Source: Dehalococcoidia bacterium (GTDB lineage Bacteria > Chloroflexota > Dehalococcoidia > Lucifugimonadales > UBA3495). Taken from it: DNA of 45,205 bases. Under the pieces are notes generated by a model that searched no databases, was not told where the DNA came from, and saw only the letters and a list, made by a program, of their open reading frames with translations. The translations under genes were made by a program, and so were the position numbers. Of this stretch, positions 7,167 to 36,636 are shown one piece after another (position 1 is the first letter of the stretch; every line of letters begins with the position of its first letter). The stretch covers positions 1 to 45,205 of the forward strand of contig CAVODA010000001.1 in NCBI GenBank assembly GCA_963694265.1, read 5' to 3'.

Positions 7167-8744
7167 ATGCGTCTTCACGATTTTCTTGATTTTCACGCTC
7201 GGGAGCGTCCGGACTCGGAATTTGCTGTTATTGGAGATCGAACGGTTACATATAGCGAGGCCAGCAAGCGGATTAACCAATTGGCCAACGCATTTACCAG
7301 TGCCGGTCTCAACAAAGGAGACCGAGTCGCCTTCCTTTCCAAAAACAGCATCGAATACATGTACATGTACTACGCAGGCGCCAGGTCAGGTGTGGTTCCC
7401 GTGCCACTGAACTATAGGCTGGCTCCAAATGAGTGGGCCTATATCATCAACGATTCACAGTCAAAAATGCTGATGGTGTCCAGTGAGTATCAGGAAAGCG
7501 TGGATGGTGTGTGGGAAGAACTTGAGGCTGTTGACCAATTCGTGTCGGTGGGTGCGTCTAACAGGGGGAATAGTTCCGAAGAATGGACGGATTTTGATAC
7601 TTGGGTCAATGCCCAATCAGATTCGGCACCTTTAGAGGAAATCTCAGCCAACGACGACATTTTCCAAATGTATACCAGCGGGACTACCGGGCACCCCAAA
7701 GGAGTCATTCTCACCCATGATTCTCTGACCTCTAACCTGGTACAGTTCGCCCCTGATATTCCCATGTCTCCGGGCCACCGGACATTGGTTGCCGCGCCTC
7801 TTTATCATATCGCCGGGGCATTCAACGGTTTTTATGCTTTATACCAAGGCGGCTGTCTGATAATTCACGAAATTTTCGACCCGGCTGAAGTCGTCAAAAC
7901 CCTGGACGAAGAAAAGATCAATTGGGCCATATTGGTTCCTGCGATTATCCAAGCTTGTTTGATCGCAGTTCCAGACGTTGATCAACGCAAATTCACTGAC
8001 CTTGAAATTATCGCCTACGGAGCGTCTCCCATCGCCGAGGAGACACTTTCCAGGGGTCTGGAGGTGTTCAACTGCGACTTTGTTCAGGTCTACGGCCAGA
8101 CCGAACTATCCCCAATCGCGACTATCATGACCTCAGCCGACCATCGCATGGCGTTGAACGGTCGACCGGAGTTGCTGCTCTCTGCGGGACGGGCGGCCCT
8201 GGGTACAGACCTGCGGATAGTAGATGAAGACGATAACCAGGTTCCCAACGGGACTATGGGAGCGATCTGTGTCCGAGGCCCTCAGATTATGAAGGCATAT
8301 TGGAACCTACCAGAGGCGACCGCAGAGATGATGCGTGGCGGCTGACTGCACAGCTGTGATGCCGGAACCCTTGATGATGAGGGTTATCTTTACGTCCAAG
8401 ACCGAGTCAAGGACATGATCGTGTCGGCCGGAGAAAACGTTTATCCCAGGGTGATAGAAGAAGTCCTATTCAAGCACCCGGCCGTCGCCGATGCGGCGGT
8501 TATTGGGATTCCAGACCCGCAGTGGGGTGAGGCAGTGAAAGCGGTGGTCCAATTGCGCGATGGCGCATCAGCCACCGAAAACGAACTCATACAACATTGC
8601 CGCGGCCAGGTGGGAGGCTTTGAGCTTCCCAAGTCGGTGGACTTCATCGCAACCCTGCCCAGAAACGGCTCAGGCAAGGTGCTCAAGCGGGAATTGCGAG
8701 AACCATACTGGGAGGGCCAAGGCCGCCGAGTAGCCGGTTCGTAA
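7167..8744 (+). pseudogene. AMP-forming acyl-CoA synthetase / fatty-acid-CoA ligase interrupted by a single in-frame TGA (8343-8345)
   Basis: ORFs 7110-8345 and 8415-8744 are in the same frame (1305 nt apart, which is 435 codons), and no other stop lies between them. Motifs present: YTSGTTGHPKGV, and then ...MMRGG[TGA]LHSCDAGTLDDEGYLYVQDRVKDMIVSAGENVYP. The likely start is the ATG at 7167 (MRLHDFLDFHAR), with SD GAGAGGG. Confidence 0.8.
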
Positions 8745-8767
8745 GATTGTGGTTGACTAGCCTTCCC

Positions 8768-10597
8768 CTACCTGGGGATGTTCTTCTCCACCCATTCCAG
8801 CTCTTCTTCGGCGGTGTCGAAGTATTCAAAGCGGTGGAACAACTTTGTTGGTCCCCTTGATGCGCCCAACGCCTGGCGTTCGGCGGTGGTGGCGCGCTCG
8901 TCGATAACCAACGTGTCTGGATCGATGACCACCCCGTACGACTCTAGAGCCGCTGCAACGCTGACAAAACCGTCTAGAACGTCGTTCAGGACGTTGTCTG
9001 TTTCCCTTTCCAGCGGGTCGCCCCATCCGCCGCCGCCGGCCGTGTAAACACGCACCAAGTCGCCCTTTTTCCAGATGTTGTCATCGGAAAAGGCCCGTAC
9101 CTCTTTTTCCTGCGGCGTTCCAGGGTTTTGAACCACCCTTGAGGTGCCGCCACCCATGCCGCCGTTCACACCCCAAGTTGGGAAGATGTTGTTCTCAACA
9201 CGTAGCCCAAAAGTGCCTTCATCGGCCAGGATTCGGACGTCGCGGATGATTCCGCAGCCGCCACGCAGCTTGCCGGGGCCGCCCGAGTCCATGGCGATGG
9301 CATAGCGTTCCATGCGCAGAGGGTACTCCATTTCCATGAACTCGCCGGGGTAGTTCTCGTTGTGTCGGCTGTAAATGGCGTCCAGGCCGTCGGCGAACGG
9401 TCGTGCCCCGTGGCCAACGGCGATGCCATCGGTACAAAGCAGCCAGTTATTGGTCTCTGAATCTTTCATGCGCCAGTAGGCGATTACGTAGACCGCTGAG
9501 CCCGCCATGACCTTGCCGTCGGTGGCCTCGGCCAGCAACGCCCGCACAGAACTCTTCAGTTTGGTGAAGGTGTGGGCACGGCAACCCAACGCAGCAGGCC
9601 AGTCTGGCTGGAGGATGCTGCCTTGGCGTAACTGAACATCGTCGATGGCTGAGACCAGGCCGTGGTTGGACAAAAGCGACGTATCGTACTGATGGAAATA
9701 TTGCCCAAAGTAGGCTGCTAAGGCACCATCGCTGGCCAAGAAGTTGATGGAACCATCTGCTTGATCGTCGCTGGCGGTGGCGTCCAGGGTAATCCGGTCG
9801 CCTTCTCGTGTCAGCTTCACGTGGTAGGAGTACCAACGGTCGCTGACCCCGGCGTGATCCATGTAATCCCTGACGCTGAAACTGCCCTGGGGGATGATTT
9901 CCCGAGATTTCTCCCGCACCATCTTGGCCGTGTCGACTTGGTCGGCGTCCAGCGCGGTCAGAGTGGTCTCCTTGCCAAAGCGCTCAAACATCTCCAGCAG
10001 GCGTTCTTGGGCGCGTTTGGCGGCGGCCATCAGGGCACGGGTGTCGCCTTCCAGCAGGTCGGGGTATCGGGAGTTTCTGAGGATAATCCGGTAGGCCTCG
10101 TCGTTCAGCTTACCCTGGTCGACGATCTTGATCGGTGGCACTAGCGTGCCGTCGTGGAATATCTCAGTGTTGGCCGGGCCAATGCTGCCAGGTCGAGAGC
10201 CGCCCAGATCCCAGAAGTGGGCGAACGAGTGGCAATAGGCCACCGGCTCACCCTCAAAGAACACCGGAGCCAAGAAAGTCATATCGGGAGTGTGGCTGAC
10301 GCTGCCCTTGGACATGTACGGGTCGTTGTACCAGTACAGGTCGCCGGGGGCCATGCCCTCCACTGGATAGAAGTCCCAGACACAACCGACCATATCACTG
10401 CCCATGGCGTCGCCAAACAACTCGTGTCCGTTGCGGTCCAGGAAATTAACCTGGTAGTCCTTCTTCTCGCGGATGAACGCAGACATGGCGGTGCGCTCGA
10501 TAAGCAGTTCACATTCCAGTCTGGCAGCCCGGAGCGAGCCTCGGATTAGCTGTCGTGTTACCGGGTCCACCACCAAATCGTTATCAGTAGTTGTCAT
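8768..10597 (-). CDS. hyuB: Hydantoinase B / 5-oxoprolinase / acetone-carboxylase-alpha family subunit
   Basis: 609-aa ORF with a family-typical N-terminus (DPVTRQLIRGSLRAARLECELLIERTAMSAFIREKKDY) and a Gly-rich catalytic region. It lies 24 bp downstream of the HyuA-type gene. Confidence 0.8.
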   Translation of the reverse strand: MTTTDNDLVVDPVTRQLIRGSLRAARLECELLIERTAMSAFIREKKDYQVNFLDRNGHELFGDAMGSDMVGCVWDFYPVEGMAPGDLYWYNDPYMSKGSVSHTPDMTFLAPVFFEGEPVAYCHSFAHFWDLGGSRPGSIGPANTEIFHDGTLVPPIKIVDQGKLNDEAYRIILRNSRYPDLLEGDTRALMAAAKRAQERLLEMFERFGKETTLTALDADQVDTAKMVREKSREIIPQGSFSVRDYMDHAGVSDRWYSYHVKLTREGDRITLDATASDDQADGSINFLASDGALAAYFGQYFHQYDTSLLSNHGLVSAIDDVQLRQGSILQPDWPAALGCRAHTFTKLKSSVRALLAEATDGKVMAGSAVYVIAYWRMKDSETNNWLLCTDGIAVGHGARPFADGLDAIYSRHNENYPGEFMEMEYPLRMERYAIAMDSGGPGKLRGGCGIIRDVRILADEGTFGLRVENNIFPTWGVNGGMGGGTSRVVQNPGTPQEKEVRAFSDDNIWKKGDLVRVYTAGGGGWGDPLERETDNVLNDVLDGFVSVAAALESYGVVIDPDTLVIDERATTAERQALGASRGPTKLFHRFEYFDTAEEELEWVEKNIPR

Positions 10598-16744: not shown

Positions 16745-16763
16745 AGTCTATGGGAATGACATT

Positions 16764-16991
16764 TTAGAAGCAGATACGCGTGACGGTATTGGTCACGCCT
16801 TTTATCGGGCGAATCTTGTGCCGCAGAATCGCTGTGATGTCTTCTCGTGTGTCGGCTTCCAGGTCGACCATAAAATCGTATAGTCCCAGGACTTCATGGA
16901 CCACTGCGCCGGAGATACCATCCAGTTTTTGAATCACTTCCTCGGTGCAGGTGGGGTCCGCGTTGACCAGGATAAAAGCGTTAGCCGCCAT
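16764..16991 (-). CDS. Stand-alone Lrp/AsnC ligand-binding (RAM) domain protein, ~75 aa
   Basis: The sequence is MAANAFILVNADPTCTEEVIQKLDGISGAVVHEVLGLYDFMVDLEADTREDITAILRHKIRPIKGVTNTVTRICF. The start at 16991 was chosen because GGAGG lies 7 nt upstream. The ORF-track start at 17090 adds a non-protein-like extension. Confidence 0.7.
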   Translation of the reverse strand: MAANAFILVNADPTCTEEVIQKLDGISGAVVHEVLGLYDFMVDLEADTREDITAILRHKIRPIKGVTNTVTRICF

Positions 16992-17196
16992 GGTGTGACC
17001 TCCCTCAATAGGTTGTAGCGAGTGCGCGTGAATGCTGGTTGGCCCGTCACTAGTCGTCACTACACTTTTAGCATCCACGGTCCTCGCCATGAGTCTGTTG
17101 CTGAGACTCTAATCGAGGCTCCAGTGGGGCGGTAGATACGGCTAGACCATCTGCATAACCTGAGGCCACCATAAGCTCTCTTTTTCCCGAGTAATT

Positions 17197-17231
17197 AAAA
17201 AGCCGCCTGGTTGTTACACCAGGCGGCTTTT
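17197..17231 (-). terminator. Intrinsic terminator after the sulfite-oxidase-family gene
   Basis: AGCCGCCTGG-TTGTTACA-CCAGGCGGCT forms a 10-bp stem flanked by A4/T-runs. On the minus strand it is followed by TTTTT. Confidence 0.85.
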
Positions 17232-17251
17232 GATTGGCTAATCGATGAGAG

Positions 17252-18325
17252 TCAGGCTTTGCGCACCGTGATTGGCACCGAGTGGATAGAGTTGACCTCG
17301 TAGCCCCTGAAATTCCAGGTGGCCAGCATGGGCTGCACGTTCCCGGCGCAGTCGGTGGCTCGGGACCGAATCAGCGAGTTGCCGATGCTGACGGCCTCCC
17401 AGTCGTATTCCCAGTGCTGCCAAGAGTATTCGCCGTCGTGCTCTTGTAGCTTGGCGTCGTGCCAGGTGCGGTTGTCGTCAGTGCTCACCTCAACCTTGGT
17501 GACGGAGCCTTCGCCTGACCAGGCCACTCCCGTGACCTTGTGCTTGCCGGGCTGAATGACATCGCCTTTGTTCGGGGTGCTAATTAGCGACTTAACCTTT
17601 AGGTTGGCAACCCGTCTGGCCTTGGCATCGCCCTTGCCATCAGTGGCCGGGTAGATCCAATAGTCCATCTCATGGAACCCGCCGTTGGGGTGGTCCATCG
17701 CCACGATCTTGGCCAGCCATTTGACTGAAGTCATCCCGTACCAACCAGGAATCAGCAGCCGGATTGGGAACCCATGGTCATTGGGCAGGACTTCGCCGTT
17801 CATCTCGTAGGCCAGGATCGAATCTGGGTTGAGTAGCTTCTCCAGCGGCACACTCATCTCGTAGACCATCGTGCCTTCCGCGTGGGACTCGGTGCCGGAA
17901 TCTGCGCCCACGAACAGAACATTGGTGACAGAACCCTTCAGGCCTGCCTGTTCCAAAACGGTCTTCACCGACACACCCTTCCAGGTGGAGACACTGAGAC
18001 CGCCGTTGTCCCATTGGACACCCTCTGCCGGTGGCTGCATGGTTGACCGGCTGTTGCTGGCGCACTCCATGAGGCTGGTAATCTCATGGCTGGGCATCTT
18101 TAGCAGGCCGTCGTAGGTCAGCGTCAGAGGGTTATTAACATCGCCACTGATCGGGAATGACCAGCCGCCTGCAGCGATTTCAGGTGCGGCAAAGTGGCTG
18201 CGAATAAAGTGACCCTCAGTCTTGGAGATCGGTAGGTTCATGTCAGGTAGGAAAACGCCCGCACAGATTGGGTCCTGTGAGAGAACGTTGAGGTCGCCAT
18301 ACGAATTGGATGCTGGAACCGGCAT
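17252..18325 (-). CDS. Sulfite-oxidase-family molybdopterin oxidoreductase (Oxidored_molyb + Mo-co dimerisation domains); no signal peptide
   Basis: Contains the motifs HFIRSHFAAPEI, LMECASNSR (Mo-ligand Cys) and MNGEVLPNDHGFPIRLLIPGWYGMTSVKWL, plus a C-terminal Ig-like dimerisation domain. The SD is GGGAGG. The TGA stop is followed by a strong terminator. Confidence 0.85.
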   Translation of the reverse strand: MPVPASNSYGDLNVLSQDPICAGVFLPDMNLPISKTEGHFIRSHFAAPEIAAGGWSFPISGDVNNPLTLTYDGLLKMPSHEITSLMECASNSRSTMQPPAEGVQWDNGGLSVSTWKGVSVKTVLEQAGLKGSVTNVLFVGADSGTESHAEGTMVYEMSVPLEKLLNPDSILAYEMNGEVLPNDHGFPIRLLIPGWYGMTSVKWLAKIVAMDHPNGGFHEMDYWIYPATDGKGDAKARRVANLKVKSLISTPNKGDVIQPGKHKVTGVAWSGEGSVTKVEVSTDDNRTWHDAKLQEHDGEYSWQHWEYDWEAVSIGNSLIRSRATDCAGNVQPMLATWNFRGYEVNSIHSVPITVRKA

Positions 18326-20443: not shown

Positions 20444-21745
20444 CTAGCGTGCGACCACGAGATCGGCACCGGGCAACTGTTTTTCTTTGATGGTGTAAAC
20501 GGTGCCGGTGGCCAGTAGCAGTAGGGCGATATTGCTCCAGATGGCGATTGCATAGGTGCCTTGAGCATCGTAAAGCAGCCCGCCCAGGTAGGCGCCGAAC
20601 CCGGAACCCAAGGGCATCACGGCAAACATGAAGCCATAGATAGTCCCCAACTGGGTCAGACCAAACCGGTCCGATGCGTAGGCCGCCGTGATGGATACCA
20701 CCGCGTTCCAAGAGAATCCCACCAGTAGTACGCCCAGCAACAGCACCGCGATGCCCATTGACGGTATGCCCAGAAATGGGATTCCCATGGACAGCAGCAC
20801 GAACACAAACCCGAGACCGCGTAGGTTGTAAGAAAGGCTGAGTAGCTTGCGGCGTCCGTGCTGGTCCGATAGGTGGCCCAGCAGCAAAGCCCCGATTATC
20901 GCCGCCGCTCCGATGAGGCTGAAGGCTCCGGCAGCCACCATCTTGTGGTAGCCCAAGTCCTGCACGTATGTGACGAAATGAGCGTTCACGAAGCTCATGG
21001 AATAGCCTCAAACGAAGTACCCCAGGGTTAGCCTGGCAAACAAGGGTGTGCGCAACGCTTCCCGGAATGTGGCGTCCCGACCGAGTAATTTCTTGAGGTC
21101 CGATGCCGGGCTTCTACCGGGGCCGCCTTCCGACGCGTCAAGGGGTTCCAGCCCCATTTCCTGGGGGCGGTTACGGATGAGCAGGAACCCGCCGGGTAGG
21201 ACAATCAGCAGCAGCAACCCGGCCAAGAACCAGTAGGCGTCTTTCCAGTCCAGCAGCACCAGGAATAGGGAGGCCGCCGGCACCAGGGTCATGGCACCGA
21301 ACGAACCGGCGCCGCTGACCAGCCCCAACGTGAGACCTCTCCTAGTGTGGAACCAGGCGCTAACCACCTTGGTCAAAATTGGGCCGGTGCCCAGGGTGAT
21401 CCCAATGCTCATGATGGCGAACAGCGCGTAGAGTTGCGCCAGGCTACTGATGAAGGGGATCAAGAGCAGTATCGTGCCCATTACAGTGACCCCGGAGAGG
21501 ATGGCGATCTTTGGGCTGTACCGGTCTGCCAGATATCCGGCGAGGGGCCGGAGCAGCCCGGAGATCATGAAGGTCAAGGCAAAGGCCAAGGACATTGAGC
21601 CCCGGCTCCAACCGAATTCGTCGGTCATCGGTTTGAGGAACACGCCAAAGGAAAACTGGCCGCCGGATACGCCGAAAGACACCAGCACACACCCGGCGAC
21701 AACGAACCAGCCGTAGTAGAAGGCCTTTTTGTTAAACAATCTCAT
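20444..21745 (-). pseudogene. MFS transporter (oxalate/formate-antiporter-like subfamily) interrupted by a single in-frame TGA (21010-21008)
   Basis: ORFs 21008-21745 and 20444-20998 are in the same frame (747 nt, which is 249 codons). The N-half has 6 TM segments plus the cytoplasmic loop, and the C-half has 6 TM segments. The junction reads ...RLTLGYFV[TGA]GYSMSFVNAHFVTY, which falls inside TM7. Confidence 0.75.
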
Positions 21746-22653: not shown

Positions 22654-24012
22654 ATGGGGGCGGTGGCATCCCCGTTGCGTCAGATTGCCGAAGACCGTGG
22701 TGGCAGAATACCGGAAAGGCTGCTGGCCAAGCTTTGGAAAGAACGGGCAGCCCGCCTCACGGCATTGCGGACGGAATCTGGTCGGCGGATCAGAGTGGTC
22801 TATCCGGGTCGTTCCGGGGTGACTGCTGGTCCGGATTTTCGAGACGCCCTGCTGGAAGTTGAAGGCGTTGGTTTTGTTCGCGGTGACGTTGAGTTGCACA
22901 TCAGGCAGAAAGACTGGGATTCCCACGGTCACGGCGGAGACCCCAACTACAACGGTGTGGTGTTCCACGGGGCCCTGGAAGTCCACTCAGAGGAGACTCG
23001 CCTGCAGAGCGGAGTGTAGGCTCCGGTAGTCGATCTCAGTGCGCTGCTGGTAGATTCGGCCACGCCTGCGTTTGAGTCTGAATCGGATTCGGAATTTGGG
23101 CCGCTGATCGATCTCTGGCAGGTGTTGTCCCAGCGCGGATTTCCCCGCCCTAAGACACTGGACGAGGTTGAAAAATCCTTGGATCTGGCCGGAGACCGGC
23201 GGTTCCAATGGAAGTCGAGTTGGTTATTTCAGTGCATCCAGGCTGAGGGGCCGAACCAGGCTTCGGATCAAGGCTTAATGGAAGGGTTGGGTTACCGGAC
23301 CAACCAGCGTCCGTTCATCGAGTTGGCGTCGGTGGTGCCGTATCAGGTTTTGGCCCAGGCAGCAGGGCAGCTGGAGGCGGGCCAGCGTTGTGCTGCAATC
23401 TCTGGTTGGCTGCTTGGACGCTCCGGCTTTGGTGGGTCGATGTCGGCTTTTTCGCCCAATGAAATAGGTGAGTCGCCGCCGCAACCGAAACTGCCGCAGG
23501 GGCTTGGTGCGGCCATGAACCGGGAAGAATGGTGGTTGTTCCGTGTTCGCCCGACCAACCACCCCCGGCGGCGGATTATGGGCGCGGCCGTGATTATAGA
23601 CCGATTTATGCCCACTGGTTTGGCTGCTGGATTACGTGAAGTGGTGCAGCAGTTGAGCGCCGCCAAGCTGACAGCGTTTTTGTTGGCCAGTGGAGCGTCC
23701 GGCCCTGCGTACGTGGGTCTCGGTAGGGCTAAAGACCTGGCTGTGAACGTGGTCTTGCCGTTCATGCACGCGTGGGACCAGTGCCAGGCACTTGAAAGGG
23801 GTGAGGCTGAAATATCGTCGGCCGCGCCTGGCGTCAAACAACTGGGAGTTCCAGAACAACTCTACCGGCGTTTTACGTTGCTGGCTGAAAACGAGATAAC
23901 CCGGGAGATGACCAGTCAGTTATTGCCCACCCGTTGGCTGAGGGCCGTGAGCAACGCCCGGCGTCAACAGGGGTTGCTACATCTGTCAGAGGTGTTAAAA
24001 GGGGCCTTCTAA
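22654..24012 (+). pseudogene. DUF2851-family protein interrupted by a single in-frame TAG (23017-23019)
   Basis: ORFs 22654-23019 and 23122-24012 are in the same frame (468 nt, which is 156 codons), with no other stop between them. The N-terminal part (PERLLAKLW...RVVYPGRSGVTAGPDFRDALLEVEG..VRGDVELHIRQKDWDSHGHGGDPNY) matches my memory of the DUF2851 pattern. The combined length of ~452 aa fits the family. Confidence 0.7.
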
Positions 24013-24821: not shown

Positions 24822-24930
24822 AAAGGAATTCTCCCTAATTTTAAAAATTTGGTCTCTGGAATGGAAGTTCCAGAAACAAAGCAATGTTAGCGAATATCAC
24901 CCGCCGAAGGCCCAAACTCGGCTGCGCCGG

Positions 24931-25269: not shown

Positions 25270-25314
25270 GTGTTCTCTCCGCGTTTTAAAAATGAATGAT
25301 TTGAGTGGTGAAAA

Positions 25315-25650
25315 TTAGGCCAGGGGTATAACTGCGGTGATGCTGGACTCGCCCTCCGGTACCTTGGTGGTGTGGCCCTTGCCGCTGGTGTCTTCCACCA
25401 AACGGGCGTCGCCAGGCACAAACCGGTGGGTGGTGCCGTCTTCCAGGCCAACATCAACCAGGCCTGAAAGAGAGATTATGTACTGCCGTTTGGGGGCGGG
25501 GTGCCAATCAATGAAATGACCGGGTGCCCACTCTCGGAAAAAAATGTGTTGGGTATTGACCGCCTCTGCCAGCTCTGGGTGGGACGCTAAGTCCAACTCC
25601 TCGATCTGACTTTTTCCGTCGCCATTTGTGTACAACCGAAATATGCCCAT
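25315..25650 (-). CDS. Small atypical cupin-fold protein, paralog 4 of 4 (111 aa)
   Basis: The sequence begins MGIFRLYTNGDGKSQIEE and continues ...WHPAPKRQYIISLSGLVDVGLEDGTTHRFVPGDARLVEDTSGKGH. The SD is GGAGAC. Confidence 0.75.
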   Translation of the reverse strand: MGIFRLYTNGDGKSQIEELDLASHPELAEAVNTQHIFFREWAPGHFIDWHPAPKRQYIISLSGLVDVGLEDGTTHRFVPGDARLVEDTSGKGHTTKVPEGESSITAVIPLA

Positions 25651-27768: not shown

Positions 27769-28780
27769 CTATGGCTTGGTTGTAAGTGTAACCAGCCGCT
27801 CGGCGTTTTTGTAGCCAAGGTCAGCCTGGATCGCTGGGTCGAACCGGCCGATGAAAGCCCGTCCAAACTCCGCCAGTATCTGACCCACCTCTTCGTCATA
27901 GCCCCAGACAATATCCCCCCGATCTGTGCCCCTCATGAACCGGTCGGGATGGGTTTCAATCATGGGCCGATACATCTCATCCGCTTCATCAAGCAGATTG
28001 TCCCATTCGGCCCTCATATCGGCCAGGAAGGCTTCTTTCTCGCCAAACCTGAACGTCTCTGCAACTTCTCCGGAAATACCAAAGATGTCGTTGTAGGTGT
28101 AATAGACATTAGGATTGCGGTCCACGATGCCCTGGACGTGGGGGCGAACAAAATCGGCGTGGATGATGAATGTGACGTCTGAATATTGCTGCAGAGCCCG
28201 TTCCAGGTTGTCTTGGTGTCCCACGCCAGGGTGGAAGTACACCAGCATGTTGCCGTGGTCACTGACCACTTGGAAGTCTCCCAGGTAGATCTCAGCGCCG
28301 GGTAGGGGGTGATGGGTTCAGTTGGTGAATCTCCAACCTCGCCAGACCCGGCGAACAAACCCGGACGAACGTTAATAATCACATCAAGAATCTTGCCTCC
28401 AAGGGTAGCGACACCGTTGGCTGACGCCTGGATGAAGGGGACGAACAGATTAGGGTACTGCTGAACCGCGCGGTGGGCTACCTAAATCGCGGGAGATGTA
28501 ATCTCCGGGAAGGTTGGGAAAAAGGCAAAGGCCTTGATGCGGCCCTCGTTTTTAAGAGTGCAGGCGATGCGGTCGATATTCATCGTCCGACCCAGGATCG
28601 GGCGTTGCTCCTGGGTAATGGTGTCGTATTTGTCAGACTCTGCGCCTCTGGGCGACACGTAACCGGTGTCTTGTTGTCCGTTTTGATCCCAATGCTTATC
28701 CAATATCAGTGGGCGTCGATGTGAGAAACGGTCAGTTGCTGATTAAAAAATTCATCTGCTGGGACGATTGTCCCAATGTC
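27769..28780 (-). pseudogene. Amidohydrolase (Amidohydro_2-like) pseudogene with at least two frameshifts and an in-frame TAG; 5' boundary uncertain
   Basis: Three minus-strand frames carry successive family segments. The first ends ...LTVSHIDAH[TGA 28708-28706]. After a frame change comes ...MNIDRIACTLKNEGRIKAFAF...SPAI[TAG 28484-28482]VAHRAVQQYPNLFVPFIQ...GLFAGSGEVGD. After a second frame change near 28300 comes ...GAEIYLGDFQVVSDHGNMLVYFHPGVGH...DVTFIIHADF...NVYYTYNDIF...DRFMRGTDRGD, which is ORF 27769-28269. Confidence 0.75.
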
Positions 28781-29116: not shown

Positions 29117-29509
29117 GTGAAAGTTGCCTTGAATCACCTTCATTTCCGCAGTGGAGACCCAGATGCCGCCGCCAAGTGGTATTGCGACAATTTCGGCGCT
29201 GCCATCACCTCAGAGCGCCCGTTGTCCACCACAAAGTCGATCCAGCTTGAGTTGAACGGCGAGCATATGATGACCATATCCGGCTGTGCCGAGGGCGAAG
29301 ACCCCATCGCCGGGACAACCGAACCTCGTTACGGCCTGGACCACTTTGGCTTTGAAACCGACGACCTGATAGAGCTATGCGCCGGTCTGAAGAAAAACAA
29401 CGTGAAGTTCAACTGCGAGCCGTGGACCATGCCCTCAGGCACGATGGTCGCGTTCGTTGTAGCACCAGATGAAGTATCAGTGGAGCTTATTCAACGCCCC
29501 GCTGAGTAA
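29117..29509 (+). CDS. VOC / glyoxalase-family protein (130 aa)
   Basis: The sequence LNHLHFRSGDPDAAAKWYCDNFGA...GLDHFGFETDDLIELCAGLKKNNVKF...VELIQ is typical of glyoxalase/bleomycin-resistance proteins. It has a GTG start with a TAGGAG SD. Confidence 0.75.
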   Translation: MKVALNHLHFRSGDPDAAAKWYCDNFGAAITSERPLSTTKSIQLELNGEHMMTISGCAEGEDPIAGTTEPRYGLDHFGFETDDLIELCAGLKKNNVKFNCEPWTMPSGTMVAFVVAPDEVSVELIQRPAE

Positions 29510-29557
29510 TACAGGTAATCCCGGGTAATCCGCAGCTTGGGTTAGAAGTTGTTTGAC

Positions 29558-30418
29558 CTAGTCTGGAGCGATGCCATCAAAGAAATCTGATGCCACGGTC
29601 TCAGCAGAGGCAACATCCGGGCGGGCGCGGATGTAAAACTCCCGGCCCAATACCCACGCCGCAAGCTCCCTTGGCACCCGGTGGTAGGGCCAGTCCGGAG
29701 CCACCTGGGTGCGGTGACAGATGATGCAGGCCATCTTGGTTTCAAGATGGTCTGACACGTCCAACTCCAGGTGTATCTCCTCCGGCGGGTTGCCGTGGTC
29801 CAGTTGCTCCGGGCTGGGCATTGGGAAATCAATCCCGGCCTCGCGTAGCTTGGTGGCCCACTCCAGTCGAAACCCCTTGGGTCGAGCGCTGTAGAAAAGA
29901 CGCTGGGGAGTATATGGCTCTAGGCCGTCTTTCAATTGGTCGGGAAAGGCCGCTGGGTCTGATGCTAGATCAAAGGCCTTCGTGGCGTGCTTGGACACGG
30001 CAATATGGTCCGGGTGGCCGTAGAGCCCGCCTGGCTCAAACGTGAGCACCACCTGGGGCCGAAATTCTCTGATTTCCCGTACAAACCGCTCCACTACCTC
30101 GTCTTCCGGTGCCTTGATGTAGGCCCGTGGGTGGTTGTTGGCTTCCCAGCCGGCCATGCCAGAGTCGCGGTATTCCAGCAAAGCGTGGCTTTCCAGCCTC
30201 AGGGCTTGAACTGCGCAAGAAAGCTCTATCCTCCGGACCTCACCCAACGTCTCCCGAGTGGCCGCGCCTTCCTGCCGGATGTCTCCCTCTTCGCCCAGAG
30301 TGGTGGTCACCAGACGCACGTGTCGGCCTTCCGCCACGTTTTGGGCCAACACTCCGCCCACGGGAAATGCCTCGTCATCAGGATGGGCAAAGCAAGCCAA
30401 AAGGCGAAGTCCAGGCAT
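29558..30418 (-). CDS. LmbE/PIG-L-family N-acetylglucosaminyl deacetylase or amidase (MshB/Mca-like)
   Basis: The N-terminus LLACFAHPDDEAFPVGGVLA carries the AHPDDE motif. Other motifs are HPDHIAVSKH and ICHRTQV. A strong SD (AAGGAG) precedes the ATG. Confidence 0.8.
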   Translation of the reverse strand: MPGLRLLACFAHPDDEAFPVGGVLAQNVAEGRHVRLVTTTLGEEGDIRQEGAATRETLGEVRRIELSCAVQALRLESHALLEYRDSGMAGWEANNHPRAYIKAPEDEVVERFVREIREFRPQVVLTFEPGGLYGHPDHIAVSKHATKAFDLASDPAAFPDQLKDGLEPYTPQRLFYSARPKGFRLEWATKLREAGIDFPMPSPEQLDHGNPPEEIHLELDVSDHLETKMACIICHRTQVAPDWPYHRVPRELAAWVLGREFYIRARPDVASAETVASDFFDGIAPD

Positions 30419-30520
30419 TTATATACTCCTTATTCCAAAGTTGTTTTTGCATACTAAACCCAGGGGCATGCCAGGTTCGGACCGCAACCAAACCCGCCCA
30501 ACAAAACCTGGCTGAGCCAG

Positions 30521-32149
30521 TTAGTAGGAGGTGGCTATGCCGTCTCCCCTGGGGTCGGATGCTCCGATCAGCACCTGTCGTTCCTGGTCGATCAGGATCA
30601 ACTGCACCTTGCCGTCATACTGGCCCACGTTGCGTCGGGTCACCTTATGTCCTAGCTTTTGTAGACCTTCAACCGTTTTTTCCGGCATCTCCGGCTCAAC
30701 ACGCAATTCCATGGCCGTCTCAATGCTAGCGGGGTCGGTGCCGGGGTAGCTCCACCAGCGGGGAGCGTCCACAGCAGCCTGGGGGCCCATGCCAAAGTCC
30801 AAGAGGTTGGTGATGATCTGCACGCCGGACTGAGGCTGGAAATCGCCACCGGGAGTGCCGCCGACGATGTGGGCCTTGCCGTCTTTCAGCGTCATGTAGC
30901 AGTTCAGAGTGTGCATAGTGCGTTTCGTGGGCGAAAACTCGTTGGGGTGGCCCGCTTCCAGGGTGAACCCGCGACCGGCGCGATTGTTAAATAAAATTCC
31001 GGTTCCGGCGGCCATGAACCGGGAACCAAAGCCATGGGACAGGCTGTGCACCCAGGAGACCGCGTTTCCGGCGCCATCAGCCACGCAAAAATAGGTGGTG
31101 TTGCCGTCGGTGCGACCTGCTTCCAGGTCGGGTGACTCTCCGCCGGCCTTCTCTAGATTGATCTCACCGCGGCGTCGGTCGGCGTACTCCTTGGAGATGA
31201 TCTCTTCCAGAGGCCATTCCACGATGCGGGGGTCACCAGCCAGGCGGTTACGGTCGTCGTAAGCTATCTTTTTGGCTTCAACCATTAGGTGGATAGCTTC
31301 CGGATTGTCATAAGACATCCCGGAAAGATCAAATCCTTCTATTATATTAAGCATCTCCAAGTGTAGGAAGCCCTGGGACGGAGGCCGAGTTTGGTAGACC
31401 ATCTCGCCTCGGTAGGTGGTGCCGATGGGGTCGTAGACATCCACTTCATGGTTGGCGAAGTCCTCTGCAGTGAACAGGCCACCAGCGTCGTTCAAAGCCT
31501 TGACCATCTTCCGGGCCAGGTCGCCTTTGTAGAACTCTTCAGCCCCGCCCTTGGCGATACGTCGCAGCGACTCGGCCAGGTCTTTGTTTACCAGGAGATC
31601 GCCCTCCCCCGGAGTCTTGCCGTCGGCCAGCAGCACTTCAGCTGTTGACGGGAAACCGGCCAACCTTGAGGCGTTGTTGGCAAAGTTCTGTGCGATTTTG
31701 GGAGCCACGGCAAACCCTTCTTCGGCGTATCCAATGGCGGTGTCCAGCAATTGTTCGAAGGGCTTGGTGCAGAAACGACGGTGCACCTCTTCCCAGGCGG
31801 CAACCTCACCAGGCACGCCCACTGAGTGGGGGCCTTCTAGGGGCATCTTGGTCAGGCCCTGCTTCCGGTAGTACTCCGCGCTGGTGCCAGAGCCGGGAAC
31901 TCCGGCGCTACTCATGCCGGTCACCTGTTTGGTTTCAGCCTCGTAGAGCAGGATGAACGAGTCACCGCCAATGCCGCAACTGGGCACAATGGTCACGGTT
32001 TCAGTGGCTGCCACGGCCAGGGCGGCGTCAAAGGCGTTGCCCCCTTCTTGCAGTACCTTTAGTCCTGCGGCGGCAGACAGCGGTGAGTTTGTGCAGACCA
32101 TGCCGTTTTTACCGTAAACAACTTGCCGGGAAGGTCTTGCTGTAGTCAT
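30521..32149 (-). CDS. ggt: Gamma-glutamyltransferase family protein, no signal peptide
   Basis: The sequence GMVCTNSPLSAAAGLKVLQEGGNAFDAALA...GNTTYFCVADGAGNAVSWVHSL (catalytic Thr)...GGTPGGD is family-typical. The start was chosen at ATG 32149. Confidence 0.8.
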   Translation of the reverse strand: MTTARPSRQVVYGKNGMVCTNSPLSAAAGLKVLQEGGNAFDAALAVAATETVTIVPSCGIGGDSFILLYEAETKQVTGMSSAGVPGSGTSAEYYRKQGLTKMPLEGPHSVGVPGEVAAWEEVHRRFCTKPFEQLLDTAIGYAEEGFAVAPKIAQNFANNASRLAGFPSTAEVLLADGKTPGEGDLLVNKDLAESLRRIAKGGAEEFYKGDLARKMVKALNDAGGLFTAEDFANHEVDVYDPIGTTYRGEMVYQTRPPSQGFLHLEMLNIIEGFDLSGMSYDNPEAIHLMVEAKKIAYDDRNRLAGDPRIVEWPLEEIISKEYADRRRGEINLEKAGGESPDLEAGRTDGNTTYFCVADGAGNAVSWVHSLSHGFGSRFMAAGTGILFNNRAGRGFTLEAGHPNEFSPTKRTMHTLNCYMTLKDGKAHIVGGTPGGDFQPQSGVQIITNLLDFGMGPQAAVDAPRWWSYPGTDPASIETAMELRVEPEMPEKTVEGLQKLGHKVTRRNVGQYDGKVQLILIDQERQVLIGASDPRGDGIATSY

Positions 32150-32467
32150 CTTGAAACACGCTCCCAATGGCTAGATAAGTTTTTTGCTTCCTGTGGTTTT
32201 CACGTGGTTTTTGAATGAAGCCTCTGTCACGTCTTTTAAAACGCAACGGCAACAGGCAGAAGTGTACGTTTGCCATCCTGGCCCAGTCAATTGTGGCGGG
32301 GGTAAATAACCAAGAACGCCCGCAATTGCGGGTCCGAAATTCGTCCCAAATAAGCGCCGTTTGGCCGTTTGACAGCCCCGATGGGTACATCTACAATCCG
32401 GCTCGTGGCGGCGTGCTCTTTCTTGACCGGTAATGCGCCATGATTTATGTCTAAATCGGAGGCCGAT

Positions 32468-33439
32468 ATGGCTGAGTTGCTAGGTCTGGGTTGTTCCCAC
32501 GGACCCATCATCCTCACCCCACCAGAGGTCTGGCACAAAAGCCGTGAGCGGATATTTGGGAGCAACCCAAATTTTCAAGCTCCGCCCCAACTCATTGAGG
32601 CCTTGGGCGATGACAATGGTCTAACCCAAGACCGCCTGGACCAGCAGAAGATCGTAGCCGCCTTCCAGGTGATGCGGGACCGACTCCACGAGTGGAACCC
32701 CGACGTTTTATTGGTCATCGGGGACGACCAGGCCGAAAACTTCAAACAGGATAACCTGCCTCCGTTCTGCCTCTACACCGGCAGCGAGGTGGACGGCTAC
32801 CCGTTCAAGAATACGGCCGGCAGCAACAACCGCCGGGACGCCGCCGCCGACACTAAATTCAGCTTTAAATGCCCTTCAGAATTCTCACGGGACCTGCGCA
32901 ACTCCCTGATTCGTGACGGCATCGACATGTCATCTTCCAGCGCTTTGACTGGCTGAGAATGGGGTTTGGCCCACGCCATCATCAACCCATTGGTGTATTT
33001 GGACCCGGTAGGCAAGTTTCCCCTCCCACCATTGTTCGTGAACTGCTATGGTGAAGAAGCCGGCCCCGATTATCCGCCCCGGCCCACCGCACGGCGCTGT
33101 TACGAAGTTGGCCAGGCGATACGCCGGTTCTTAGACACTAGGACAGAGCGGGTGGCCGTGGTTGCGTCGTCTAGTTGGTCGCACAGCTTTTTGGCCCACA
33201 AGTATGACTGCTCTGCATTTGACCTGGATTCCGACCGTCGTTATCTAGAGATGGTGCGAGAGGGTAGGGGCAGCGAACTGGCGAGTCTGACTCCTGAAGA
33301 ACTGCAGGACTCTGGCGACCATGAGATATTGAATTGGATCATTGCCCTGGGGATTCTGGGCGACGTTCCCGCAGAGATAGTAGACGTGAGGGAGTCACAC
33401 ACCCAATTGGCATTTCGGGTGGCGGCTCTCTGGGGATAG
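32468..33439 (+). pseudogene. LigB-type (class III extradiol dioxygenase-like) protein interrupted by a single in-frame TGA (32954-32956)
   Basis: ORFs 32447-32956 and 32966-33439 are in the same frame (519 nt, which is 173 codons). The family landmarks are GCSHGP, VLLVIGDDQAENF, [TGA]EWGLAHAIINP, ASSSWSH and GDHEILNWI. The start at 32468 was chosen because GGAGG lies 6 nt upstream. Confidence 0.7.
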
Positions 33440-35663: not shown

Positions 35664-35814
35664 GACATCCTTTGGGCGTAATTATCGGCTTCCGCAATTC
35701 TACATGACCGAAGCTGCAGTCGATTAAAATCACCAAATAGATAATTATTGGGTAATAAAAGTTCTGATAGCTTACTGGTGTCTGATACGTGGATGCTTAA
35801 GACAGGCGTGGAAG

Positions 35815-36636
35815 GTGAATGGGATCACTAGAACAATTGCTCTGTCCGTATTCTTGGCGTTGGCAAACGCCGGTTGCAGCACGGTTGCGAACACGGTGTA
35901 GCCAACTGCTGCCCCTAGCTCAGCATTGATGAATATTCCGACTATCGTTGCAGCTCCGCCAACCGCTGACTACACCAAAGCAATCAACGATGCCGGGTTT
36001 GAGGCCCAACGTGCAAACGGCTGGCCTACACCCCAAGGTTTCATACCCACACCCACTCTCAGCAATCCTCCCACTGACGAATCAGGCTGGTTCTACGTCG
36101 AACCGGGCGAGTGTGATTTGGGAACTGCGACGACGGTGGGAAATTTGATTGACCTTACACGCGAAATGTACGCCTTTATCGATATAAGCACCGCTGTCGA
36201 TGAAGCGGAATTGGTCAGAATGGCTGACGTCATCATTCACGGTGTACCAGTAGGGGAGATTGAAGTTAGACCGCCCAGGGATTCCTTAGGCATGACCACG
36301 TATTACCAGGATGTGGAAATCCTAAATGTGCTCAATGGGGAGGTGTCTGGCGACATGGTCCGTGTGCTCCAGGTCGGCTTAGATTGGCCCACCCTTCCGG
36401 AAAGTCTGGAGAAATACCAAATTGTGCTCGCTCCTGGCAACAACTTGGGATTCCCTGGGCCGTTGAACCAATGCCCCCAAGTGCTATTTCTCATCGGGTC
36501 ATCGGCCGGTGTCTTCGTATCGGTTGGAGAGGCACAAGGTGTCTTCCAATTGGGAATAGATGAAAAGATCTTTTACGCCCAGGAGTTCAAGTCTTTTTTG
36601 GGCTTGGACGTGGATGGGGTGAAAAAGAAGGTTTAG
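35815..36636 (+). pseudogene. Putative lipoprotein whose signal peptide is separated from the mature part by an in-frame TAG (35899-35901)
   Basis: The GTG at 35815 opens VNGITRTIALSVFLALANAGCSTVANTV[TAG]PTAAPSSALMNIPTIVAAPPTADY.... It is in the same frame as ORF 35926-36636 (111 nt, which is 37 codons). The upstream piece has an n-region, an h-region and a Cys, which is typical of a lipoprotein signal. The start codon is uncertain. Confidence 0.55.

What the first reader, a model, noticed from the sequence alone, without database searches (positions are those of the whole stretch)
7167..36636. Five otherwise intact genes each carry exactly one in-frame stop codon (3 TGA, 2 TAG) with no frame change
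Seen directly, the five cases are: (i) the acyl-CoA synthetase, TGA 8343-8345; (ii) the MFS transporter, TGA 21010-21008; (iii) DUF2851, TAG 23017-23019; (iv) the LigB-like gene, TGA 32954-32956; (v) the lipoprotein, TAG 35899-35901. In every case the two ORF-track pieces are in the same frame, no other stop lies between them, and family-typical sequence continues on both sides. Each lesion is therefore one nonsense codon and not an indel. Two further genes carry frameshifts plus stops (amidohydrolase 27769-28780 and tandem USP 39036-39881). That is roughly one gene in six, in a region that otherwise looks well maintained, with good SD sequences, strong terminators and intact operons. TGA and TAG are genuine stops here. 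For example, the TGA ending the sulfite-oxidase-family gene is followed directly by a strong terminator, and TAG ends the Mo large subunit. A plain genetic-code change therefore does not explain the pattern. The remaining explanations are recent nonsense pseudogenisation (each stop is one substitution away from TGG/TGY/CAG/CGA), consensus, assembly or population-polymorphism artefacts, or context-dependent read-through or suppression.
Basis: partly seen in the sequence, partly recalled or inferred. Interest (0 to 1): 0.75.

Follow-up and report, generated by a model that had tools for sequence, protein, structure and literature searches.

The report
One selenocysteine codon, four young pseudogenes
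The five in-frame stop codons are real and occur in a wild marine SAR202 (Chloroflexota) population; four are recent gene-killing mutations in dispensable genes, and the fifth is almost certainly a conserved selenocysteine codon in a membrane transporter family that the selenoprotein catalogues I checked do not list.

Summary
All five in-frame stops are at the stated coordinates. They recur in dozens of independent metagenome assemblies of one ~99.9 %-identical SAR202/Dehalococcoidia population, so they are not assembly artefacts. They are of two kinds.

(A) The MFS transporter TGA (21010-21008, minus strand) is not a lesion.
- The same codon is TGA in 62 of 62 related loci, down to 58 % amino-acid identity, and in a subfamily at 36 % identity.
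- All 18 uninterrupted homologs examined have Cys at that position.
- The coding frame stays under purifying selection across and beyond the TGA.
- The lowest synonymous-site variability in the whole gene lies just downstream, over a conserved hairpin.
This is the signature of a selenocysteine codon with a bacterial SECIS. A 2026 selenoproteome review and NCBIfam list no MFS selenoprotein.

(B) The other four stops are young nonsense mutations: acyl-CoA synthetase TGA, DUF2851 TAG, LigB-like TGA and lipoprotein TAG.
- The closest relatives carry TGG, CAG, TGG and GAA at these codons.
- LigB and the lipoprotein evolve with pN/pS of about 1-1.9, against 0-0.12 in intact neighbours (the HAD gene, with only 3 differences, is uninformative).
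- A sister species has deleted DUF2851 and the frameshifted gene.

With the two frameshifted genes this is ordinary decay of accessory genes. The adjacent housekeeping genes are intact.

The parts
20444..21745 (-). MFS transporter gene related to the OFA/SfMCT families, 433 codons, read through one UGA. Proposed selenoprotein gene.
   Evidence: Pfam MFS_1 spans both halves. Best NCBIfam matches are SfMCT and the oxalate/formate antiporter family, all below cutoff. The best PDB match is SfMCT 6g9x. Read-through alignments to 62 related loci contain only this one stop.
21008..21010 (-). Proposed selenocysteine codon (UGA), codon 246, in the first transmembrane helix of the C-terminal half (TM7).
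   Evidence: TGA in 62/62 loci down to 58 % identity, and in the distant homologs L162 and L165. The top 120 database homologs are all ~246-aa N-terminal fragments. All 18 uninterrupted homologs examined (404-445 aa) have Cys here, in the motif G[FY]FVCG[FY][TS]M.
20968..21008 (-). Candidate bacterial SECIS. The core hairpin is AUGAGC-UUCGUGAAY-GCUCAY (20998-20978), with possible lower pairs reaching back to the UGA.
   Evidence: Codons 248-256 form the window of lowest synonymous-codon entropy in the whole gene: 0.35 bits against a gene mean of 1.41. Ser AGC is 55/58, Phe TTC 58/58, Val GTG 57/58 and Ala GCT 58/58. RNAalifold predicts the consensus hairpin. 92.7 % of cells are paired, against 20-41 % in slid controls, with one compensatory A-U to G-C change in L162. 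The fit to the published bSECIS criteria is only partial.
7167..8744 (+). Acyl-CoA synthetase pseudogene. Nonsense TGA at 8343-8345 replaces the Trp of the GGW(L/M)HTGD motif.
   Evidence: TGA in 20/20 population contigs. All other listed homologs are not cut at this codon (mostly 519-534 aa full length; a few shorter records such as P0140, P0143, P0235), and the four read, including those at 81 % and 76 % identity, have W here. Derived T396S, G397C and G421A lie at otherwise invariant columns downstream of the stop.
22654..24012 (+). DUF2851 pseudogene. Nonsense TAG at 23017-23019, derived from CAG.
   Evidence: TAG in 14 contigs and CAG (Gln) in L023, which encodes an intact 452-aa protein. 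Relatives have Q, R or other residues at this variable site. The gene is largely deleted in sister species L074 and is broken in L043.
27772..28706 (-). It has a frameshift near 28299-28311 and has lost about 184 N-terminal residues.
   Evidence: blastx against the intact ORFs of L034 and L031 matches in two frames, and only to subject residues 185-500. The intact relative has no Pfam, NCBIfam or PDB match. The region is absent from L074.
32447..33439 (+). LigB-like extradiol dioxygenase pseudogene. Nonsense TGA at 32954-32956, derived from TGG.
   Evidence: TGG (Trp) in L079 (98.6 % identity, intact 323-aa gene), L074, L032, L035 and L043. pN/pS against L079 is 1.01. Eight window-derived non-synonymous changes lie on both sides of the stop; seven are amino-acid or start-codon changes, including W130R, E188V and L194P, and the eighth is the stop itself.
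35815..36636 (+). Lipoprotein pseudogene. Nonsense TAG at 35899-35901, eight codons after the lipobox Cys.
   Evidence: L079 has GAA (Glu) and an intact 287-aa ORF with the signal peptide and lipobox LANAGC. pN/pS against L079 is 1.87, from 12 non-synonymous and 2 synonymous changes.
38841..40048 (+). Tandem universal-stress-protein gene with a probable 1-nt frameshift between its two Usp domains, around 39511-39536.
   Evidence: Usp domain 1 is complete in one frame and domain 2 begins in another. Reading 'PVLII' followed by 'PQEHNDAILDGSIGHIIVPLDGS' requires one extra base. The pieces also vary among population contigs.

Best explanation
The window comes from an uncultured marine SAR202-type Dehalococcoidia (Chloroflexota) population. 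Its five in-frame stops have two unrelated causes.

(1) MFS transporter. The UGA in the MFS gene is a programmed selenocysteine codon. During translation, a short hairpin that starts 9 nt after the UGA would recruit the SelB-Sec-tRNA complex, so that Sec is inserted. Sec occupies the position where uninterrupted homologs have an invariant Cys. That position is in the first helix of the C-terminal domain (TM7), one of the helices that line the MFS transport cavity. The product is a full-length 433-residue carboxylate-type transporter. What the Sec does is inferred only; substrate or soft-ligand contact, or redox gating, are possibilities.

(2) The other four stops. These are ordinary single-step nonsense mutations that inactivated accessory genes: TGG to TGA twice, CAG to TAG, and GAA/GAG to TAG. 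They swept to high frequency or fixation in this nearly clonal population. Those genes, and the two frameshifted genes, are now decaying neutrally. Homologous genes have already been deleted in a sister species.

Shown: conservation of the UGA, the Cys homologs, the synonymous-site constraint, sense alleles in relatives, and pN/pS of about 1. Inferred: actual Sec insertion, and loss of function of the ACS and DUF2851 products.
For: MFS as a selenoprotein gene:
- TGA sits at the same codon in L031 and L033 (78 % nucleotide identity), with synonymous changes downstream.
- The 120 best homologs, down to 64 % identity, are all ~246-aa fragments ending at this codon.
- 62/62 loci from metagenomes and GTDB genomes have TGA there, never TAA, TAG or a sense codon, and it is the only stop in each read-through alignment.
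- The three codons between the UGA and the next ATG vary almost only at third positions: Gly GGN, Tyr TAY, Ser/Thr.
- All 18 uninterrupted homologs retrieved have Cys at the aligned position.
- The minimum of synonymous entropy for the gene lies over the hairpin directly after the UGA.
- A subfamily at 36 % identity also has TGA, with a compensatory stem change.
- Two Dehalococcoidia MAGs are among the ten most selenoprotein-rich bacteria in BSepDB, with 49 and 46 genes (PMC13326102).

The other four as pseudogenes:
- ACS: the four nearest homologs read have W here, and none of the ~120 listed homologs outside this population ends at this codon.
- LigB: TGG in a 98.6 % strain and in four other species.
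- Lipoprotein: GAA in the 98.6 % strain.
- DUF2851: a CAG allele in L023.
- pN/pS is 1.01 (LigB) and 1.87 (lipoprotein), against 0.00-0.12 for GGT, LLM and glyoxalase.
- The LigB changes are mostly window-derived and lie on both sides of the stop.
- The sister species L074 lacks most of DUF2851 and the whole frameshifted gene.
- Eight complete haem, IlvD, malic-enzyme and Ni-SOD genes just upstream are all intact.
Against: - No Sec machinery (selA, selB, selC, selD) could be examined in this genome. No tRNA-Sec was found in the 1.8 Mb of fetched loci, which do not sample whole genomes.
- The hairpin fits the published bSECIS model only partly. The stem is 5-7 bp. The loop is 9 nt and begins UU unless two inner U-A pairs form. 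The predicted energy is -5 to -8 kcal/mol, against the model's limit of -7.5 or lower.
- Covariation is minimal because the element is nearly invariant.
- For ACS no sense allele was found in the population, and the excess of derived changes downstream of the stop is not significant (3/53 against 1/88).
- For DUF2851 there are too few substitutions to measure selection.
- TGA is an unusually rare terminator in this lineage. This leaves some room for leaky UGA decoding.
Confidence: 0.85

Rival explanations
1. The MFS gene is a conserved split gene. UGA is a true stop, and the C-terminal half is translated separately from the ATG 9 nt downstream by termination-reinitiation. Two six-helix halves then assemble in the membrane.
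For: An ATG lies four codons after the UGA in every sequence, and gene callers annotate two ORFs. Split MFS halves can assemble; this rests on general knowledge from LacY work and was not tested here.
Against: - The break would fall inside a transmembrane helix, at a residue that is an invariant Cys in uninterrupted homologs.
- The three 'spacer' codons keep Gly-Tyr-Ser/Thr, with variation almost only at third positions. They are therefore translated in frame.
- The stop is TGA in 62/62 loci and never TAA or TAG.
- The Met is equally conserved in the Cys homologs (CGFTM), so it is not a dedicated restart codon.
- No purine-rich Shine-Dalgarno sequence precedes it (sequence read directly).
Confidence: 0.07
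2. All five stops, or at least the two TGAs at Trp positions, are read through. This lineage would decode UGA ambiguously, through weak RF2 termination, near-cognate tRNA-Trp or a suppressor, so the genes remain functional.
For: - Both non-Sec TGAs replace Trp codons.
- TGA ends only 4 of 47 genes here and 0 of 11 long ORFs in the sister species. It ends about 29-35 % of long ORFs in other SAR202 and Dehalococcoidia.
- The ACS stop is fixed in all sampled contigs.
Against: - LigB evolves neutrally and has accumulated radical derived substitutions on both sides of the stop.
- Relatives at 98.6 % and 87 % identity have TGG.
- TGG to TGA is simply the commonest transition route to a stop.
- Four genes still terminate with TGA.
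- Neither the other genes of the window (six-frame scan) nor the housekeeping genes called intact just upstream show an in-frame TGA.
- No suppressor tRNA was seen in the fetched DNA.
- The stop-usage comparison mixes a curated gene list with raw ORFs and uses small numbers.
Confidence: 0.05
3. The stops are assembly, consensus or sequencing artefacts, or minority alleles promoted into a consensus.
For: Sense alleles do exist for DUF2851 (L023), LigB and the lipoprotein (L079).
Against: - The same stops are in dozens of contigs from different projects and assemblers, namely ENA, JGI and Logan records with MEGAHIT-style and scaffold-style names.
- Contigs fetched through neighbouring genes are unbiased for these sites and still carry the stops.
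- The sense alleles sit on distinguishable haplotypes. L079 is 1.4 % divergent overall.
Confidence: 0.01
4. The TAG codons encode pyrrolysine, or the ACS and LigB TGAs encode selenocysteine too.
For: TAG and TGA are the codons used for Pyl and Sec, and the class is rich in selenoproteins.
Against: - Relatives have Gln or Glu at the TAG sites and Trp at the TGA sites, not Lys or Cys.
- These stops are confined to one shallow lineage.
- The gene families are not Pyl-using methyltransferases.
Confidence: 0.01

Closest known systems
Bacterial selenoprotein genes with an in-ORF SECIS hairpin (archetype: E. coli fdhF; consensus bSECIS model of Zhang and Gladyshev as summarised in PMC13188914)
   Same: - An in-frame UGA is conserved across orthologs.
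- Cys-containing homologs exist.
- A stem-loop lies immediately 3' of the UGA, inside the coding region.
- The UGA-to-loop spacing is about 15-17 nt, against 16-37 nt in the model.
- A 'GU' lies in the loop.
- The host class is known for large selenoproteomes.
   Different: - The protein is a polytopic MFS transporter, not a soluble redox enzyme.
- The hairpin is short and weak. It meets the 'G in the first two loop positions' rule only if two extra U-A pairs form.
- The Sec machinery and actual Sec insertion are unverified here.
Previously predicted Sec-containing transport proteins: YeeE/YedE thiosulfate transporter family, SaoP/SaoB/SaoX, SO_0444 Cu/Zn efflux family, mercuric transport protein, a cation-transporting ATPase (PMC13188914)
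   Same: Membrane transport proteins in which Sec replaces a Cys. In close relatives the gene neighbours a four-domain rhodanese and a SorA-like sulfite dehydrogenase. This resembles the sulfur and metalloid context of those families.
   Different: - The fold and family differ: MFS_1, related to the OFA/MCT families.
- The review text contains no 'MFS', 'major facilitator', 'PF07690', 'antiporter', 'lactate' or 'oxalate'.
- No NCBIfam selenoprotein model matches.
- More distant members sit among organic-acid and aromatic catabolic genes, with no constant partner.
SfMCT L-lactate transporter (PDB 6g9x/6hcl) and the oxalate:formate antiporter OxlT (8hpk), which are OFA/MCT-type MFS transporters
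   Same: Best structural and family matches over the full length: E 2e-29 to SfMCT, and NCBIfam SfMCT and OFA models. SfMCT has a Cys one position from the aligned Sec, in the same helix ('YFCGSF' against 'YFVUGYS').
   Different: All family scores are far below the curated cutoffs (152 against 320 bits), so this is a separate subfamily. OxlT has no Cys there. The substrate is unknown.
Ordinary bacterial pseudogenes formed by nonsense and frameshift mutation in accessory or paralogous genes
   Same: - Single-step mutations away from sense codons that are retained in relatives.
- pN/pS of about 1.
- Further lesions and deletions in sister lineages.
- Housekeeping neighbours are untouched.
   Different: The density is high for a free-living marine bacterium: about 6 of 44 genes, four of them by nonsense mutation. 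Nearly all the lesions are at or near fixation across many samples.

Membership tests
Bacterial selenoprotein gene (MFS gene) | In-frame UGA conserved at the same codon among orthologs | tested here: met
   TGA in 62/62 loci at 58-100 % amino-acid identity. TGA also in L162 and L165, a subfamily at 36-44 % identity. The top 120 database homologs are all truncated there.
Bacterial selenoprotein gene (MFS gene) | Homologs with Cys aligned to the UGA | tested here: met
   18 of 18 uninterrupted homologs (404-445 aa) have Cys in G[FY]FVCG[FY][TS]M.
Bacterial selenoprotein gene (MFS gene) | Coding frame conserved and under purifying selection downstream of the UGA | tested here: met
   Read-through alignments of up to 433 residues contain only this stop. 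Variation in codons 247-249 and beyond is mostly at third positions.
Bacterial selenoprotein gene (MFS gene) | bSECIS: loop of 3-9 nt, upper stem of 4-16 bp, G in the first two loop positions, 16-37 nt from the UGA, MFE of -7.5 kcal/mol or lower (PMC13188914) | tested here: inconclusive
   A hairpin with a 5-7 bp stem and a 9-nt loop (UUCGUGAAY) lies 15 nt after the UGA. Conservation at synonymous sites is extreme. The G rule is met only with additional inner U-A pairs, which leave a CGUG loop. MFE is -5.1 to -8.2 kcal/mol for the core hairpin where it is the predicted fold. There is one compensatory change.
Bacterial selenoprotein gene (MFS gene) | selA, selB, selC (tRNA-Sec) and selD in the same genome | not testable with these tools
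No tRNA-Sec occurs in the fetched loci. There is class-level support only: Dehalococcoidia MAGs with 46-49 selenoprotein genes.
Bacterial selenoprotein gene (MFS gene) | Selenium actually incorporated (labelling or mass spectrometry) | not testable with these tools
   This needs an experiment.
Nonsense-mutation pseudogene (ACS, DUF2851, LigB, lipoprotein) | Sense codon at the site in the closest relatives, one or two substitutions away | tested here: met
   ACS: Trp in all four homologs whose sequence was read; no other listed homolog ends at this codon. DUF2851: CAG in L023. LigB: TGG in L079, L074, L032, L035 and L043. Lipoprotein: GAA in L079.
Nonsense-mutation pseudogene (ACS, DUF2851, LigB, lipoprotein) | Relaxed selection after the lesion (dN/dS near 1, loss of conserved residues) | tested here: met
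   Met for LigB (1.01; eight window-derived non-synonymous changes, counting the stop and the GTG-to-ATG start change) and for the lipoprotein (1.87), against 0-0.12 in GGT, LLM and glyoxalase (HAD 0.66 on only 3 differences). Only suggestive for ACS (TGD-motif G397C and others). Not measurable for DUF2851.
Nonsense-mutation pseudogene (ACS, DUF2851, LigB, lipoprotein) | Gene dispensable: lost or broken independently in related lineages | tested here: inconclusive
   DUF2851 is deleted in L074 and broken in L043. The frameshifted gene is deleted in L074. ACS is absent at the syntenic position in L032 and L043. LigB, however, is intact in all other species seen.
Stop-codon reassignment (UGA to Trp or Gly, as in genetic codes 4 and 25) | UGA no longer terminates genes and occurs widely at conserved sense positions | tested here: not met
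   Four genes end in TGA. Only two TGAs lie at Trp positions in 45 kb. The flanking housekeeping genes are called intact, with no split genes. TGA terminators are nonetheless depleted.
Pyrrolysine decoding (TAG) | TAG conserved among orthologs, in Pyl-using enzyme families, with pylTSBCD present | tested here: not met
   The TAGs are lineage-specific and relatives have Gln or Glu. The families are DUF2851 and an unclassified lipoprotein.

The most novel reading that the evidence does not exclude
This lineage may be in a state of partly ambiguous UGA decoding. It belongs to a class with very large selenoproteomes. It uses UGA as a terminator unusually rarely: 4 of 47 genes here and 0 of 11 long ORFs in the sister species. 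It has also fixed TGG to TGA changes in two genes. If UGA termination is weak, for example through reduced RF2 efficiency or efficient near-cognate or Sec-independent read-through, such 'nonsense' alleles would be only mildly harmful and could spread. That would be an observable early step towards stop-codon reassignment in a free-living, abundant ocean bacterium.

A more probable novelty is independent of this reading. I put it at about 0.6 that it both holds and is undescribed: the Sec-containing MFS transporter is a new selenoprotein family, widespread in deep-ocean SAR202.
Probability: 0.06. Interest if true: 0.8.

Novelty: new member of a known kind. Interest (0 to 1): 0.45.

Why it matters
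Four of the five stops matter little. They show that a cosmopolitan SAR202 population carries a patch of recently killed accessory catabolic genes.

The fifth matters more, for three reasons.
- It points to a large family of Dehalococcoidia/SAR202 MFS transporters that public annotation systematically splits into two 'truncated' proteins, but which appear to be single selenoproteins.
- Sec in a cavity-lining helix of a secondary transporter is unusual. Most selenoproteins are soluble redox enzymes.
- It gives a concrete target for asking what selenium does in transport, and a SECIS variant that sits at the edge of the current search model.

There is also a practical lesson. In-frame TGAs in selenoprotein-rich uncultured lineages should be checked against orthologs before being counted as pseudogenes, and the reverse also applies.

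Tried and rejected
- Rfam scan of the window found only tRNA-Ile and no known recoding element.
- ARAGORN on the window and on all 1.8 Mb of fetched loci found no tRNA-Sec and no suppressor tRNA. These loci are not whole genomes, so this is uninformative.
- Single-sequence folding of the 74 nt after the MFS UGA gave a different MFE structure with a modest z-score of -2.5, so it was not decisive.
- Covariation counting on the hairpin shows it is almost invariant. Only one compensatory pair was found, so covariation alone does not prove the structure.
- I looked for a constant genomic partner of the Sec-MFS gene. Rhodanese, SorA-like and metallo-beta-lactamase neighbours are conserved only among relatives at 80 % identity or more. 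Distant members sit beside various catabolic enzymes.
- I treated L015 as an independent 98.4 % lineage, then rejected this. Its divergence is confined to a recombined tract at 29117-31745.
- Differences in gene-call lengths among loci (LigB second piece 62 against 157 aa) looked like extra lesions. L030 is 100 % identical to the window, so these are gene-caller differences.
- Look-up of the last window gene, to extend downstream, found nothing on record.
- Pfam, NCBIfam and PDB searches could not name the 'amidohydrolase' or the lipoprotein.
- Literature searches for a Sec-containing MFS, or for SAR202 selenoproteins, found nothing specific.

Full report
**The observation.** Translating the five genes in the stated frames shows one stop codon in each and no frame change: TGA 8343-8345 (acyl-CoA synthetase, ACS), TGA 21010-21008 on the minus strand (MFS transporter), TAG 23017-23019 (DUF2851), TGA 32954-32956 (LigB-like) and TAG 35899-35901 (lipoprotein). 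Pfam domains run across the stop in four of them. A six-frame scan for isolated stops with long open stretches on both sides recovers the same long cases and adds no other credible one. TAA, TAG and TGA all terminate genes in the window, at 20, 15 and 4 of 39 genes respectively.

**Not an artefact.**
- The truncated products are on record verbatim in 38, 111 and 34 blocks of the public assembly collection. These are ENA, JGI and Logan records from different projects and assemblers.
- The retrieved contigs are 99.6-100 % identical to the window, so this is one nearly clonal natural population.
- Contigs fetched through a particular truncated product are biased for that stop. I therefore also fetched contigs through intact neighbouring genes.
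- In those unbiased contigs ACS is TGA in 10/10, LigB is TGA in 8/9 and the lipoprotein is TAG in 8/9.
- DUF2851 is TAG in 14/15 contigs that were not selected on it.

**Organism and relatives.** A scan of GTDB species representatives with the DUF2851 protein returned only Chloroflexota, Dehalococcoidia and 'SAR202 cluster' MAGs. The closest is L074 (DUCU01000032, about 87 % nucleotide identity), a sister species. L031-L035 and L043 are at 70-80 %.

**The MFS stop differs from the others.**
- *Conservation in relatives.* L031 and L033 have TGA at exactly the same codon. The context RLT[LM]GYFV-TGA-GYSMSFVN is conserved, and synonymous differences continue downstream.
- *Database homologs.* In the 5.8-billion-protein database, the 120 best homologs, down to 64 % identity, are all ~246-residue fragments covering the first 55-57 % of the query. 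The whole family is cut at this codon by gene callers.
- *Metagenome scan.* The scan gave 64 loci. Together with L031 and L033, 62 span the site, and all 62 have TGA there as the only stop in the read-through alignment, down to 58 % identity.
- *Uninterrupted homologs.* An exhaustive profile-free search with the C-terminal half found uninterrupted homologs of 404-445 residues at 31-44 % identity. All 18 that I retrieved have Cys at the aligned position, in the motif G[FY]FVCG[FY][TS]M.
- *Translation across the UGA.* The three codons between the UGA and the next ATG keep Gly-Tyr-Ser/Thr and vary almost only at third positions. The ribosome therefore reads through in frame.
- *Synonymous-site constraint.* Among 58 distinct sequences, the six-codon window with the lowest synonymous-codon entropy in the whole gene is codons 248-255, at 0.35 bits against a gene mean of 1.41. 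Ser is AGC in 55/58, Phe TTC in 58/58, Val GTG in 57/58 and Ala GCT in 58/58.
- *Hairpin.* These codons form the hairpin AUGAGC-UUCGUGAAY-GCUCAY, which RNAalifold also predicts.
- *Distant subfamily.* A subfamily with only 36 % identity in the C-terminal half (L162, next to an MsrA gene) again has TGA at this codon. Its hairpin is AUGGGC...GUCCAU, with one A-U to G-C compensatory change.

Taken together, a conserved UGA, a Sec/Cys homolog pair, in-frame purifying selection and an RNA element immediately downstream are the standard bioinformatic signature of a bacterial selenoprotein gene.

**Limits of the selenoprotein case.** The hairpin fits the published consensus only partly. That consensus requires a loop of 3-9 nt, a stem of 4-16 bp, a G in the first two loop positions, 16-37 nt from the UGA and an MFE of -7.5 kcal/mol or lower (PMC13188914).
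- Stem and loop sizes fit, and the spacing (15 nt to the 9-nt loop, 17 nt with the inner pairs) is at the lower edge of the range.
- The G rule holds only if two inner U-A pairs leave a CGUG loop.
- The predicted energy is -5 to -8 kcal/mol.

BSepDB reports that about 13 % of bacterial selenoprotein genes lack a canonical SECIS. It also lists two Dehalococcoidia MAGs among the ten most selenoprotein-rich bacteria (PMC13326102). I could not examine selA, selB, selC or selD in this genome.

**What the MFS protein is.**
- It is closest to the SfMCT L-lactate transporter and the oxalate/formate antiporter family, but scores far below their cutoffs.
- The Sec lies in the first helix after the long central loop (TM7).
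- TM7 is one of the four cavity-lining helices in the canonical MFS fold. This last point rests on established knowledge and was not tested here.
- Close relatives keep a four-domain rhodanese and a SorA-like sulfite dehydrogenase next to the gene.
- More distant members sit among varied catabolic genes.
- A 2026 review of prokaryotic selenoprotein families contains no MFS entry. No NCBIfam selenoprotein model matches.
- NCBI records name the fragments simply 'MFS transporter'.

**The other four stops are young nonsense mutations.**
- *ACS.* Every listed homolog outside this population runs past this codon (most are full length, about 521 aa). The nearest ones, at 81 % and 76 % identity, have Trp in GGW(L/M)HTGD. 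The window copy also has derived T396S and G397C in the TGD motif, and G421A, all downstream of the stop.
- *DUF2851.* One population contig (L023) has CAG and encodes an intact 452-aa protein. The gene is largely deleted in L074 and broken in L043.
- *LigB.* The gene has TGG in L079, a strain 98.6 % identical over this stretch, and in L074, L032, L035 and L043.
- *Lipoprotein.* L079 has GAA and a complete 287-aa ORF with a lipobox.

Between the window and L079, pN/pS is 1.01 for LigB and 1.87 for the lipoprotein. It is 0.12, 0.00 and 0.07 for the intact GGT, luciferase-like and glyoxalase neighbours. With L074 as outgroup, the window lineage carries eight derived non-synonymous LigB changes, counting the stop itself and a GTG-to-ATG change at the start codon. 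Among them are W130R, E188V and L194P, and they lie on both sides of the stop. This is neutral decay, not functional read-through.

**The two frameshifted genes.**
- Region 27772-28706 matches a conserved ~500-aa ORF of relatives in two frames and lacks its first ~184 residues. The whole region is missing from L074.
- The tandem USP changes frame between its two domains.
- By contrast, the eight complete haem-biosynthesis, Ni-SOD, IlvD and malic-enzyme genes immediately upstream of the window are intact in all four contigs examined.

**Rivals.**
- *A split MFS gene with restart at the ATG.* This is contradicted by the in-frame constraint on the three intervening codons, by the exclusive use of TGA, by the position inside a helix at an invariant Cys, and by the same Met being present in the Cys homologs.
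- *Lineage-wide leaky UGA.* The only support is that TGA terminators are rare here: 4/47, against 20/68 and 146/420 long ORFs in relatives (p about 0.009 and 0.0001). This is a rough comparison of a curated gene list with raw ORFs. The decay of LigB argues against it.
- *Artefact, pyrrolysine, or extra Sec sites.* These are excluded by the data above.

**Verdict.** Four stops and two frameshifts are ordinary recent pseudogenisation of accessory genes in a clonal SAR202 population. The fifth is a probable selenocysteine codon in an apparently unlisted, widespread MFS selenoprotein family. That part is the interesting one, and it remains to be confirmed by finding the Sec machinery and a Sec-containing peptide.

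Noticed in passing
window, all gene ends; L158, L074, L031-L073: TGA is a rare terminator in this lineage: 4 of 47 genes here and 0 of 11 long ORFs in sister species L074. It ends about 29-35 % of long ORFs in other SAR202 and Dehalococcoidia loci. TAG is unusually common across the class. The comparison is rough.
   Followed up: partly
window 24060-25650 (minus strand): Four tandem paralogous genes of ~111-134 aa, with a weak Cupin_2 match. They cross-hybridise with each other and are conserved as an array in all SAR202 relatives.
   Followed up: no
window 8745-8767 (between the ACS remnant and hydantoinase B); L005, L085, L089-L091, L093: Some population contigs carry an insertion of about 0.9 kb here that encodes a 177-aa HicB-like antitoxin-domain protein. 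It is absent from the window.
   Followed up: no
L015 versus window 29117-31745: One population contig (k141_1339064) is otherwise ~99.9 % identical but has a tract with pS of about 0.3-0.37 across the glyoxalase, PIG-L and GGT genes. That is the same divergence as to sister species L074, which suggests a recent recombination import.
   Followed up: partly
window 16754-18625 and 20440-21802, compared with L074: The sister species lacks the SorA-like sulfite dehydrogenase region and the whole Sec-MFS gene. The selenoprotein transporter is therefore itself part of the flexible gene pool.
   Followed up: partly
window 18634-20373: The protein next to the Sec-MFS gene has four rhodanese domains. 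It gives sub-threshold matches to NCBIfam 'rhodanese-related (seleno)protein' and to the selenoprotein TsoB. The window copy has no in-frame TGA.
   Followed up: no
window 35860-35880 versus L079: A hexamer repeat (TTGGCG) in the lipoprotein signal peptide differs by two units (12 nt) between strains. The start codon is GTG in the window and ATG in L079.
   Followed up: no
L162 205-777: In the distant Sec-MFS subfamily the transporter gene lies directly downstream of a methionine sulfoxide reductase A (PMSR) gene. MsrA is a family with known Sec forms.
   Followed up: no
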